Of a DNA stretch of 64,000 nucleotides, positions 10,981-56,549 are shown piece by piece. The translations under genes and the position numbers were made by a program. Source of the stretch: Eledone cirrhosa (lineage: Eukaryota). Position 1 is the stretch's first letter. Each line of letters opens with the position of its first letter. The notes beneath the pieces were generated by a model that saw only the letters and a list, made by a program, of their open reading frames with translations, did no database searches and was not told where the DNA came from. Where the stretch lies: contig OZ024763.1 of NCBI GenBank assembly GCA_964016885.1, forward strand, positions 25,358,001-25,422,000, given 5' to 3'.

Positions 10981-11087
10981 CTGATGATTTCCTTCCAATG
11001 AAACAGTTCTAATATATTAAATTTGTTGTTTACACTCTACCACTGTATTGAGTACCTTACTGTGGTTACCCCCAATTGAACCCAGGA
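10981..11087 (+). mobile_element. Family D PLE-type terminus beginning at an HHR core
   Basis: CTGATGATTTCCTTCCAATGAAACAGTTC then ACTC..TTGAGTACCTTACTGTGGTTACC; homologous to revcomp of 12528-12650 and 32529-32658. Confidence 0.65.
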
Positions 11088-11183
11088 CACACACATATAT
11101 ATATATATATATATATATATATATATATAGTATTAAAGAGATCAGAGGCCATAAGAGGTTGATTTAGGTTTATATAAATGTCT

Positions 11184-11240
11184 GTGATACATATTTCACT
11201 GAGGACTATAAATTTTCATAACCTAAAGTCTTCAGATGAT
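11184..11240 (-). ncRNA. Putative decayed hammerhead ribozyme
   Basis: Minus strand CTGAAGA-stem II (CT..AGG TTATGAA / TTTATAG TCCT..AG)-GAAA-TATGTA-TC; stem I weak. Confidence 0.4.
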
Positions 11241-12527
11241 ATAAAATCTTTTGAAAAGACTTTAAAATATTTAAAATTCTTCAAAAGCTCCGGTTTTTAC
11301 TATTTATACGCGACATTGAATGCTTCATTTTATCTGCGTGACAGCTGACTGACCATAATGTGGTCTGTACATCAGGTAGAACTGGCCATTCTAGTAAGTA
11401 AAACATGATATAATAAATTACAGCACTCGACATTGTACAAATCATCCATTGTAGATGTGGTATCCTATGGCTGCTTCCATTTCAACAGTTCGGAATTAGT
11501 TGTTGAAACGGCAGGAGCTCAGCCGTCGGGGTGCCGAATCCTTCATATTACATATGTATATATTTGTGTATATACATATAAGTACATATACATACGTGCA
11601 TACACCTATATGTGGATATAGCCTTTACACATGTATATATATGAGTATATAAATACAAAGACAAGATGGTGTGGAACAGAAGAAAGAGGAGACACAAAGT
11701 AACAGAAGTGATCACAAAATCTGTGACGAAACAGCTTTGACAATCAACAACTAACCGACAAGAAATTATAATAAATAAAACCTCATGTGTGCGTGTTTTT
11801 TATTGGCAGTATGACCCTCCAAAGTATATATACGATGTATATAATATATATACATACGATATATTAATACATGTTTTATATATATAATATGCATGCATAC
11901 ATACAGAGAATGGGTTATACTTTGGGAGAATCATGCTTTAAATTCTAAAATATTTCCCATCATGCCACAAGAATTTGCTGAGTCATTAGTGACAACTCCA
12001 TCTTGATTTCATCAACAAAAAACGGTGAGAAAATATCTTAAAGCTTCCTCTCTAATTCATACACGTAATAATAATTTATTTACACAATTGTTGTGAGTTA
12101 ACCAGTGAAACAGTTATTAACAGAATATATTGTTTGAAAAGTTGATAATTTCGCTACAAATATGCGGTGGAGCTTTTAAAAACCTCACTGTGTTATTTAA
12201 AATAGCGGAGTAATCACACATGTATACAAATATATATATTCGTGTATAAACGTACTTATTTTCATAAATCCAATATATTTGACTCTGTTTACAATATTTC
12301 AAACGGCCTCGTGTTTCTTCTGTGATTTGGGTGAGATTTGTTTACTATTTCTACGAGGTTTTAAGGCAGTGTGTAGTGATTTAAATGAGATTCAGCTGCT
12401 ATTTCTAGCGTTTTATGTATATATGCGTGTGTATGGGTTTGCATTTGGTTTCATACGCACACCTATTAATATATATATTATATGCTTTCATATACACCTC
12501 TATATCTATATATTATGTGTGTGTGTA

Positions 12528-12687
12528 TCCCGGTTTCAATCGGGGTTAACCGCAGTAAGTAAGGTACTCAATACATAGAGTATATACAATATTTAATATA
12601 GAAGTGGCTTCTACGGGACTAGAACGGTTTCATTCGAAGGAAATTATCGGTTCTAGTCCCGTAGAAGCCATTTCTATATTAAATATT
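12528..12687 (-). mobile_element. Family D terminus with 38-bp inverted arm
   Basis: Inverted repeat 12588-12625 / 12650-12687; loop is a damaged HHR core (GATAATTTCCTTCGAATGAAACC on minus). Confidence 0.65.
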
Positions 12688-13409
12688 ATGGGCGTATGCA
12701 AACATACACACACGCATATAAATATAAAACGCTAGAAATTTCCTTTAAATGATGCTTAATAGATGTACATAATACATATATACACAATAAAATATATAGT
12801 AATTACAGCGAAATCTCGCTCAAGCCATAACCATAGGTGAAAATAGTAAACAAATCTACCAATTATCTTATTTCTAGCCTTATTATATATTTTCGGTTAA
12901 TAGATATTTTAAATTCATCTCAAGAATCGAAATCTACAACCTTTAATGCGTATCTCTGTTAAATTTCAAAACAAAATATAAATTATTAAGAAAGTTATGA
13001 GGTAACAAAGTCAATGAGGTCAATTTTAGCTTTAATAGTTCACATCAATTTCACGGTCAAAGGGAGGTAACTCTAAACGACTAATTTAATTTTTTAAGGA
13101 AATTCTTTATCCTGAGTGTGGATATTTTCATGGTCAAAACAAGTGCTAGAAACATGAGATTAGCCAAAAGGACAGAGATATCCATAACATTACATGACAG
13201 AGTTATTAGCCGAAGGGGCAGTGATGTCCATAACATTACATGACAGTATTAGCCAAAGGGGAATAAGTTCTTTATTCAAGAACCTCTTATGGTTTTGCTA
13301 GAGTTATCTTTCTTTTTTCTTGGGGGGGGGGGGGTCTCCTCTTTGGAGATCTGTACTCTCTAATAGAAAGGTCTGTATCCTGGCTCACTCCCCTATCGTA
13401 CAGAGGTAA

Positions 13410-54141: not shown

Positions 54142-54304
54142 CAAAGTTTAAGCTCAACCAGTGGGAGCCGTATAGTATACTAGGGAGAGGATCAGGGGTG
54201 TATGACACTCCACTTATCCAGCAGGCAGTATAAGGTTAGCTCGATGTCTGAGGACAGAGCCGTGATATAATAAATAACAAAGAACGCCTATAGCATATGC
54301 ATAT

Positions 54305-54362
54305 CTTTACTTGCTAACATTGTTTCATCCGCACTATAAGTGGGACTCATCAGAGCATAAAG
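54305..54362 (-). ncRNA. Type I HHR, family B (upstream pLTR)
   Basis: Identical to 49378-49435. Confidence 0.85.
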
Positions 54363-56453
54363 GTTAATTACATACCATACAAGCAATAACAAATCCAAGA
54401 CATTGAAGAATGAAAAATAATAGAAGATAAAGGATATTAAGGAAGTAAAAGTAAAAATAAGAATAAAAATAAAAATAAAAATAAAAATAAAAAATAAAAA
54501 TAATAAAATAAACAATGAAAAATAAGGGGTGCTATCAGTCACAGTTGGGCGGGGTGCTGTCAACATATAGTTATATACAAGCATACACATGGATAAGAGA
54601 ACAGACAAGAGTAGATAAGATAGATAGGATTAGGTAAGAGTAGGTAAAAAATAGGTGAAAAACAGACTTATAATATATATAAGAAAATATAAAGAAATAT
54701 ATAACAAACTTATATATAAAATATAAAATATACAGATAATAGTGATACAGGGTAAGGAATGAAATAAAATAATATAAAATTAAAATTAAAATTATATAAA
54801 ATAGAACATAATATAATATAATCATAAAATAAGATAAGATAAGGTAAACTAAAATAAAATAAAATAGACTAAAGTAAAATAATATAATATAAGATATAAT
54901 TAAATGTAATTAAATAAATAAATAAATAAATAAATAAATAAATAAAATTAAATAAATAAATAAAATTAAAATTAAAATTAAATTTAAATAAATAAATAAA
55001 TAAATAAATAAGTAAACAAATAAGTAAATAAATAAATAAATAAATAAATGAAATTAAATAAGTAAATAAATAGAATTAGATAAAATGAAATGAAATAAAA
55101 TAAAATAAAATGAAATAAAGTAAATTGAGATAAGATATATATTTTTTAGAATATATCTCTTGAATATATCAGGGGCCCACGAAGGCACTAAGTGTCACAG
55201 TTATCTGTATCACTTGACCATTTTTTTTAAAAATATATTTCTTGAAAATATCAGGGGCCCACGAAGGCACTAAGTGTCACAGTCACCAGTATCACTTGAC
55301 CATTGCAAGGCAATGGAGGCGTCCCAGGTTGGGCAGTCTCAAAAGTTCACTCGAAAGTCACGGGTGTGCATTCACACAGTTGAGCGGTGGGGTAATCACA
55401 AACCGGTTCACACCCGGGCAGGAGTCCAATGGTCAAACAGAGGTGCATCGAAGGAAGGTAGGAGAATTCACGTGCAGTAGCAAGCGAGGTGCAGGCGGGT
55501 TAGCCAAAGCAAGCAGACACAGTTGGAGCGCATACAAAAGATATATAAAAATACAAAAGATATATAAAAAATAGCTTCAAGAGCCATGAAGTCACCGCAT
55601 TGGGACATCACAAGATTGTACACATCAATATGTTCAGCACGTATATGTACATATACACACCACATGCATATGCAGAGACGGTATACATATATATATATAT
55701 TTTTTTTTATATACAGACATATACAACCACCTACACCCATACACATATAAATGTATACACAGACACACACGCACACACACACAGCGTAGGACACCCGGGT
55801 CAAAGCTGATATTTGTTTACTTATTTATTTATTTATTTATTTATTTAAATTTAATTTTAATTTAATTTTAATTTTAATTTTATTTATTTATTTAATTTTA
55901 TTTATTTATTTATTTATTTATTTAATTACATTTAATTATATCTTATATTATATTATTTTACTTTAGTCTATTTTATTTTATTTTAGTTTACCTTATCTTA
56001 TCTTATTTTATGATTATATTATATTATGTTCTATTTTATATAATTTTAATTTTATATTATTTTACTTCATTCCTTACCCTGTATCACTATTATCTGTATA
56101 TTTTATATTTTATATGTAAGTTTGTTATATATTTCTTTATATTTTCTTATATATATTATAAGTCTGTTTTTCACCTATTTTTTACCTACTCTTACCTAAT
56201 CCTATCTATCTTATCTACTCTTGTCTGTTCTCTTATCCATGTGTATGCTTGTATGCAACTATATGTTGACAGCACCCCGCCCAACTGTGACTGATAACAC
56301 CCCTTATTTTTTATTGTTTATTTTATTATTTTTATTTTTATTTTTATTTTTATTCTTATTTTTACTTTTACTTCCTTAATATCCTTTATCTTCTATTATT
56401 TTTCATTCTTCAATGTCTTGGATTTGTTATTGCTTGTATGGTATGTAATTAAC

Positions 56454-56511
56454 CTTTATGCTCTGATGAGTCCCACTTATAGTGCGGATGAAACAATGTT
56501 AGCAAGTAAAG
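56454..56511 (+). ncRNA. Type I HHR, family B (inverted arm)
   Basis: CTGATGA 56463-56469, GAAA 56490-56493. Confidence 0.85.
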
Positions 56512-56549
56512 ATATGCATATGCTATAGGCGTTCTTTGTTATTTATTAT

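What the first reader, a model, noticed from the sequence alone, without database searches (positions are those of the whole stretch)
10981..56549. Hammerhead-rich retroelement community colonising one (TA)n microsatellite
About 15 recognisable HHR cores from families A, B, C, D, H and I, plus decayed ones, lie within 46 kb, each in an element flanked by (TA)n or related dinucleotide tracts. Three coding Naiad-type families coexist with at least six non-coding families. HHRs in PLEs are known; this density and diversity suggests (TA)n acts as a shared safe-harbour niche with cross-mobilised passengers.
Basis: partly seen in the sequence, partly recalled or inferred. Interest (0 to 1): 0.72.

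Follow-up and report, generated by a model that had tools for sequence, protein, structure and literature searches.

The report
Hydra-type Penelope nest with hammerhead retrozymes
This TA-rich stretch of animal DNA holds a real pile-up of five families of a known TA-seeking jumping gene plus two small non-coding repeats that likely borrow its enzymes, each ending in a predicted self-cutting RNA, so it is a dense example of known biology, with one enlarged ribozyme variant whose copies often start just past its predicted cut site.

Summary
In detail: 17 hammerhead (HHR) cores from about 11 insertions; 20331-57790 is 94.5% element or (TA)n. The interpretation needs correcting. The coding families are not Naiads. 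They have a C-terminal GIY-YIG and the Hydra motifs (RWR, DKT, CxCX5C, CxxC, CxH); HHRs and (TA)n targeting are published Hydra traits (PMC8557442). Two 'non-coding' families (H, and the 20.3-21.1 kb element E) are truncated 3' ends of two more coding Hydra families. Only D (612 bp) and I (about 480 bp) are shown to be non-coding tandem retrozymes. Seven HHR patterns give 88,931 exact matches genome-wide. The window is 7.4-fold enriched, matching its 6.9-fold (TA)n excess; families co-locate only 2-fold, and 'safe harbour' is untested. Most interesting: D's HHR is an enlarged U3-A8 variant with covarying stem II; 9 of 30 D insertions start 8-26 nt past its predicted cut site. In E and H, fold-back breakpoints pile up inside the ribozyme. 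One A copy beside the N gap is probably an assembly duplicate. The scan reported the same system before on other DNA of this and related genomes.

The parts
10981..11083 (+). Decayed 3' end of Hydra family H with HHR core
12525..12687 (-). Decayed fold-back copy of family H 3' end; core mutated
14931..15153 (-). Fold-back 3' end of a further HHR family (F); only decayed 3' halves of the ribozyme; parent not traced
18896..19655 (+). Retrozyme I, about 1.5 units of a 466-490-bp tandem monomer; minimal type-I HHR at 19345, predicted cut GUA after 19375
20334..20527 (+). Fold-back 3' end of coding Hydra family E (HHR 3' half only)
20876..21067 (-). Second fold-back 3' end of family E in the same TA tract
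22064..22972 (+). Retrozyme D, 1.5 units of a 612-bp monomer; enlarged U3-A8 HHR at 22596-22740, predicted cut GUC after 22729
24178..24397 (+). tRNA-like SINE in TA, no HHR found
   Evidence: SINE label inferred from sequence
24475..31287 (+). Hydra family A insertion: inverted arm 24475-26136, 5'-truncated frameshifted RT-EN, N gap 29039-29238, probable false duplicate 29239-31140 of 27134-29038
31386..32147 (+). 3' end of an A subfamily, HHR 31961
32526..32717 (-). Fold-back 3' end of coding Hydra family H, two HHR cores lacking the stem I 5' strand
33435..33623 (+). Short 3' end of A subfamily starting at the HHR core
33984..37363 (+). 5'-truncated Hydra family A copy, frameshifted RT-EN, HHR 37174
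38266..39530 (+). 5'-truncated non-LTR (RTE-like) RT fragment in TA, not a PLE
   Evidence: Pfam RVT_1 E 2e-27; no alignment to the Hydra RT; RTE label recalled
42749..43668 (-). Second retrozyme D insertion, 97% identical to the first, HHR 43109
44964..47759 (-). Hydra family B two-armed insertion with EN fragment 46101-46445 and two HHRs sharing one stem I mismatch
49254..56541 (-). Full-length Hydra family C: inverted arm 55810-56541, upstream pLTR, ORF 54147-51606 (one frameshift near 52955), 3' pLTR; three HHRs
57788..57868 (-). 80-bp 3' tail of family A

Best explanation
The region is a nest of repeated insertions into one TA-rich tract by five coding families of Hydra-clade Penelope-like retrotransposons (A, B, C, E, H) and two non-coding tandem retrozymes (D, I) that are likely copied by the same enzymes. 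Inferred mechanism: the C-terminal GIY-YIG endonuclease nicks (TA)n and the RT copies RNA from a fixed 3' end. Copying usually stops early and often folds back, which gives short palindromic 'non-coding' stubs. Each insertion leaves TA on both sides, so the tract stays a target. The HHR near each 3' end is predicted to cut multimeric transcripts into unit RNAs. Shown: domain order and motifs, fixed 3' ends in TA, variable 5' ends, coding parents of H and E, tandem non-coding structure of D and I, covariation of D's ribozyme. Inferred: cleavage, circles, which RT moves D and I, order of events.
For: RT followed by C-terminal EN with RWR, DKT, CxCX5C, CxxC, CxH in the intact C and H proteins; these are the defining Hydra features and match Hydra-1_Obim motif by motif by eye. 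C has intact 844-aa frames at 97-98% identity elsewhere. H continues upstream into a 5,966-bp unit with a 758-aa open frame (L151). E has EN about 1.25 kb upstream in L238, L243 and L256, and RT plus EN in L187. D and I form tandem arrays with no same-orientation Hydra ORF upstream. 3' ends in TA: A 30 of 32, H 41 of 45, E 54 of 58; E 16 of 17 in random or neighbouring DNA; background 2.6%. D-type: (TA)5 lies 175-256 nt past the ribozyme in 26 of 30 loci. Element cover follows TA content across 60 random 10-kb regions (rho 0.67). D ribozyme: unconstrained RNAalifold gives the three-way junction with 10 of 26 pairs showing double changes; 65 double-change cells vs 25.4 shuffled, 0 of 500; the single sequence folds the same way (z -2.6).
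Against: No named Naiad, Neptune, Poseidon or Hydra reference was in my tree, so clade membership rests on motifs and by-eye comparison. Units are 4.9-6.0 kb against under 3 kb for published Hydra. No sequence link between D or I and a particular coding family was found (D vs E: no significant match). TA flanks are not unique to these elements: the SINE (3 of 3 3' ends), the RTE-like fragment and a 614-bp HHR-less repeat also sit in TA. Stem III and the 3' strand of stem I of D were part of the search pattern, so their invariance is by construction; 4 of 19 matched D-type cores are U3.G8 and 2 are C3.A8. Family A shows no pile-up of breakpoints at its HHR.
Confidence: 0.85

Rival explanations
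1. One reading: (TA)n is a selected safe-harbour niche with Naiad drivers and at least six independent non-coding passenger families.
For: Window 7.4-fold enriched in exact HHR patterns (14 vs 1.9); other-family matches near a copy 18 vs 9.0 expected in 120 loci; the short E and H fold-backs are very numerous (34,004 and 10,993 matches) and might propagate on their own.
Against: Domain order excludes Naiad. H and E have coding parents, and both E sequence subtypes occur in ORF-linked copies (L187, L238). Enrichment equals TA excess. Endonuclease target preference explains the pattern without selection.
Confidence: 0.1
2. The pile-up of D 5' ends (and of E and H fold-backs) marks RT stalling at a stable RNA structure, not self-cleavage; the HHRs may be slow or inactive.
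For: RT moving 3' to 5' meets stem I at monomer position 383, and the peak is at 392-394. E and H breakpoints lie 31-57 nt upstream of the cut site, so those templates were uncut or re-ligated. Metazoan PLE HHRs cleave poorly in vitro (PMC4209133 passages).
Against: Core nucleotides and U3-A8 pairing persist across diverged D subfamilies while stem II covaries, which implies selection on catalysis. 7 of the 9 clustered copies are solo 219-234-nt pieces, close to the 243-nt predicted 3' cleavage product.
Confidence: 0.3
3. The cluster's size is inflated by assembly error (false duplications, over-long noisy TA tracts).
For: N gap with 0-substitution duplicate; homopolymer frameshifts in ORFs that are intact elsewhere; kilobase-long impure TA tracts.
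Against: The other copies differ by real substitutions (D vs D 21, C pLTRs 9), and seven unrelated families cannot arise by duplication error.
Confidence: 0.1

Closest known systems
Hydra clade of C-terminal EN+ Penelope-like elements, incl. Hydra-1_Obim of Octopus bimaculoides (Craig et al. 2021, PMC8557442; sections 6, 11, 12, passages, supplement parts 1-2 and excerpts read)
   Same: RT then GIY-YIG; RWK-like, DKT, CxCX5C, CxxC, CxH motifs; no CCHH, no IFD; type-I HHR near the 3' end, several with the same U.U next to the core; (TA)n targeting; 5' truncation, partial tandems, inverted arms, tail at one end.
   Different: [quoted passage not shown]
Metazoan non-LTR retrozymes (Cervera and de la Pena 2020, PMC7229834, passages; Li, Clavereau, Pollet 2026, 10.64898/2026.07.22.740005, part 1 of 5 and passages)
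   Same: Non-coding tandem monomers with one type-I HHR each, co-existing with PLEs and proposed to be moved by them.
   Different: Monomers of 480 and 612 nt (published about 170-400); fixed 3' ends in (TA)n; D's HHR has an 80-nt stem II domain, a stable 4-bp stem III with a further hairpin, and a U3-A8 core.
Minimal PLE hammerheads incl. the U3-A8 variant of Schistosoma mansoni (Cervera and de la Pena 2014, PMC4209133, passages)
   Same: Palindromic short stem III (A, B: AUAUAUAU; C: ACAAUGU; I: ACUAGU), extra base before stem II, close inverted HHR pairs, solo HHRs from truncated PLEs, U3-A8 covariation.
   Different: Here U3-A8 occurs in large HHRs predicted to fold as monomers (D, E), one of them in a retrozyme.
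Naiad PLEs (PMC8557442)
   Same: (TA)n preference; present in octopods.
   Different: N-terminal EN, CxC, DKA, IFD, CCHH, no canonical HHR: domain order, DKT, missing IFD and CCHH and the HHRs here all differ.

Membership tests
Hydra-clade PLE | Single ORF, RT then C-terminal GIY-YIG | tested here: met
   C 844 aa, H 758 aa open frames; A and E in pieces; B EN only
Hydra-clade PLE | RWK and DKT motifs | tested here: met
   RWR at 53 and DKT at 136 in C; 83 and 161 in H; K is R here
Hydra-clade PLE | CxCX5C linker, CxxC and CxH, no CCHH | tested here: met
   Found in A, C, H; CxxC and CxH in B
Hydra-clade PLE | No IFD, no N-terminal CxC | tested here: met
   By eye: RT spacing like Hydra-1_Obim; not aligned computationally
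Hydra-clade PLE | Canonical HHR near 3' end; insertion in (TA)n | tested here: met
Hydra-clade PLE | Generally shorter than 3 kb (descriptive, not diagnostic) | tested here: not met
   C 4.9 kb, H 5.97 kb
Hydra-clade PLE | Groups with named Hydra RTs in a reference phylogeny | not testable with these tools
   Reference proteins exist only in a paper supplement; tree has unnamed homologs plus one Argonauta protein
Naiad PLE | N-terminal EN with CxC, DKA, IFD | tested here: not met
Naiad PLE | Lack of canonical HHR | tested here: not met
Non-LTR retrozyme (D, I) | Non-coding tandem units, one type-I HHR per unit | tested here: met
Non-LTR retrozyme (D, I) | Self-cleavage and circular RNA | not testable with these tools
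   Only indirect: D 5' ends
Non-LTR retrozyme (H, E) | Non-coding tandem units | tested here: not met
   3' ends of coding elements
Type-I hammerhead (D) | Core C3UGANGA or covariant, GAAA, UH, three stems | tested here: met
   UUGANAA in 13 of 19 matched cores (30 loci examined), GUC site, covarying stem II

The most novel reading that the evidence does not exclude
The genome records hammerhead action in its insertion ends. Retrozyme D carries an enlarged, monomer-folding U3-A8 hammerhead that cuts in vivo, and its cleavage products are reverse-transcribed into (TA)n by Hydra enzymes (9 of 30 5' ends just past the cut site). In coding families E and H the ribozyme instead marks where copying folds back. 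This would give genome-scale evidence on what HHRs do in EN+ Penelope elements, which Craig et al. call unclear, and a named driver-passenger pair to test.
Probability: 0.35. Interest if true: 0.6.

Novelty: new member of a known kind. Interest (0 to 1): 0.36.

Why it matters
It shows a large, young octopod radiation of Hydra elements, a clade published from about 27 families. My limited library covers about 5% of random DNA and 12 of 60 random 10-kb regions hold Hydra ORF pieces. Intact ORFs (C, H) and two retrozymes with matching TA-anchored ends give a ready system to test TA targeting, trans-mobilisation and HHR function. The D and E ribozymes are missed by Rfam (D tested) and by CUGANGA descriptors, so standard HHR counts run low. 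The cluster itself needs no new principle.

Tried and rejected
Rfam whole-window scan was swamped by TA/miRNA artefacts (150 of 290 rows shown). Pfam finds nothing on the Hydra RT pieces (4 of 4 queries blank). For D, I first read CUGAUAGA..GAAA as the core and also considered twister, pistol and type-III folds by eye; all rejected once the UUGAGAA core with covarying stems appeared. Loose matches at 11199, 11214, 20126, 39198, 39231, 46009, 59002 and 61050 lack proper stems and were dropped. I tested whether 5' ends cluster at the cut site in all families: yes for D, no for E, H, A; B had only 2 copies. A D-E common origin is not detectable by BLAST. TA tracts of 150 bp or more were not preferentially occupied (0 of 23), so 'insertions lengthen TA tracts' is unsupported. 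Sequencing-run search: no RNA holder listed; read laying not used. One row (L121:1-60) had wrong coordinates and is ignored. The RTE-like outgroup was dropped from the tree (no alignment); 40 of 120 homologs were used. Five literature searches listed no paper on octopus retrozymes or the D-type ribozyme; bioRxiv supplements were not seen.
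Full report
Setting. The window lies in a 3.0-Gb animal genome. The nearest named protein to the elements is from Argonauta hians, so the host is probably an octopod (inference). (TA)n makes up 24.5% of the window against 3.6% of 60 evenly spaced 10-kb regions and 9.8% of 18 neighbouring regions.

Are the hammerheads real? Yes. A strict stem-aware scanner gives 7 hits against 0.07 in shuffles. With family alignments there are 17 assignable cores from about 11 insertions. A, B, C and I are minimal type-I HHRs with palindromic stem III, the PLE type described in PMC4209133 (passages). 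H's full form (stem I GAUUC/GAAUC, cut GUA) is seen in other loci; the window copies lack the stem I 5' strand. Both B arms share one stem I mismatch: 19 of 20 B loci have ACUGC where the window has ACUCC. The A copy at 28996 abuts the N gap, and the 1.9 kb on either side differ by 0 substitutions, so it is probably an assembly duplicate.

The coding elements are Hydra, not Naiad. Family C reads RT, then a GIY-YIG at the C-terminus, with RWR, DKT, a CxCX5C linker, CxxC and CxH. Craig et al. define Hydra by these features, report canonical HHRs and (TA)n insertion for nearly all families, and list Hydra-1_Obim from Octopus (section 11 and supplement). Naiads have an N-terminal EN and lack canonical HHRs. 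The C protein follows Hydra-1_Obim motif by motif by eye. Of 120 listed homologs, 119 have DK[TS] and 116 the linker motif. RTs of A, C, E and H are 40-53% identical and fall in one clade (100/100) with the Argonauta protein; the tree has no named clade references and a midpoint root. C is young: intact 844-aa frames at 97-98% identity occur on many chromosomes.

Two 'non-coding' families are stubs. H continues upstream in many copies, and L151 holds a 5,966-bp unit with a 758-aa Hydra frame. The element at 20.3-21.1 kb (E) carries the 3' half of an HHR with a UUGAGAA core and has EN and RT upstream in L187, L238, L243 and L256. Inverted arms end at a fixed site 65-100 nt short of the true 3' end in A, B, E and H, the 'tail' known for PLEs. 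Whether the short fold-backs also propagate by themselves is open.

Two are real retrozymes. I forms tandem arrays of 466-490-bp units (10,672 exact HHR matches). D forms 612-bp arrays with a fixed 3' end in TA and variable 5' ends. Neither has a same-orientation Hydra ORF upstream. This fits non-LTR retrozymes (PMC7229834 passages) and the proposal that PLEs mobilise them (bioRxiv 2026).

D's ribozyme. The core is UUGAGAA (U3-A8), with an 80-nt stem II domain, stem III ACCC/GGGU and a GUC site. A pattern on its 3' half gives 2,848 matches. Of 30 loci, 19 matched the core regex: 13 U3-A8, 4 U3.G8, 2 C3.A8. On 21 aligned copies RNAalifold returns the junction unprompted; 5 of 8 stem II pairs show double changes; 65 double-change cells vs 25.4 shuffled. 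Relatedness inflates such counts, and stem III was fixed by the search pattern. U3-A8 is known from Schistosoma PLEs. Among the first 30 of 1,115 D insertions picked by their 3' end, 9 start at monomer positions 386-404, just past the predicted cut after 378, against 2 and 1 in the flanking 27-nt bins and 1.3 expected; 7 of the 9 are solo 219-234-nt pieces; one locus was cut by the fetch limit. Arrays with a full unit show the same (12 of 36, counted). RT stalling at stem I predicts a similar peak. In incidental copies of E, 23 of 47 breakpoints (one counted twice) lie 31-45 nt upstream of the cut site, 20 of them fold-backs; H 8 of 17 at 35-57 nt upstream; A shows no peak (0 of 23).

Is the density special? 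Exact patterns count A 17,536, B 12,171, C 707, D 2,848, E 34,004, H 10,993, I 10,672, with reversed-pattern controls 0. The window has 14 against 1.9 expected; random regions 16 against 17.8; neighbours 23 against 5.3, 19 of them one I array. The 7.4-fold excess matches the 6.9-fold TA excess. Element cover is 62% in 20331-57790 against 5.0% in random DNA and follows TA content (rho 0.67). Other families lie within 1.5 kb of a copy twice as often as chance (18 vs 9.0, 120 loci). Only 20 of 334 random TA tracts carry an end of the 8 families tested. TA-flanking is strong for A, H and E; the lower figures for C (3 of 20), D (32 of 47) and I (17 of 32) reflect internal tandem junctions in the examples shown. 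The cluster is the tail of a genome-wide pattern. The 'safe haven' idea for TA targeting is in print (PMC4486113 passage) and cannot be tested here. A recent Octopus vulgaris repeat annotation lists 31 recently active Penelope-like families and has no occurrence of 'hammerhead' or 'Hydra' in its main text.

Verdict. The scan's earlier notes reach the same reading on other DNA; they were consulted after my tests and are not independent support.

Noticed in passing
window 15322-15935: 614-bp repeat with fixed ends, 94-99% identical copies in many loci, flanked by TA or TATG repeats, with no HHR or terminal inverted repeat seen by eye. Class unknown.
   Followed up: partly
window 17236-17474: Internally deleted copy of a young TA-flanked repeat family (30 hits among fetched loci); not classified.
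   Followed up: partly
window 19757-20280: TA-flanked repeat with a roughly 40-bp terminal direct repeat; diverged copies elsewhere.
   Followed up: no
window 5069-7871: 55-bp minisatellite, 52 copies, 96% matches; another array lies in the adjacent 10 kb upstream (L161).
   Followed up: no
window 3632-3706 (-): High-scoring tRNA-Thr(TGT).
   Followed up: no
window 3-911 (-): APE-type endonuclease ORF of a LINE running off the window.
   Followed up: no
L158-L159 (about 25-35 kb upstream of the window): Array of retrozyme I with 19 HHRs at 466-bp spacing and a short inverted arm.
   Followed up: partly
window 19050-19100 and I loci: The I monomer carries its own internal (TA)n tract of variable length, i.e. 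it brings a new target with each copy.
   Followed up: no
L171-L230: At least eight further HHR families unrelated to those of the window appear in 600 kb of random DNA, and 12 of 60 regions hold Hydra ORF pieces.
   Followed up: partly
window 52443-52601: 81-bp tandem duplication inside the C ORF, part of an Asn/Gly-rich insert between RT and EN.
   Followed up: no
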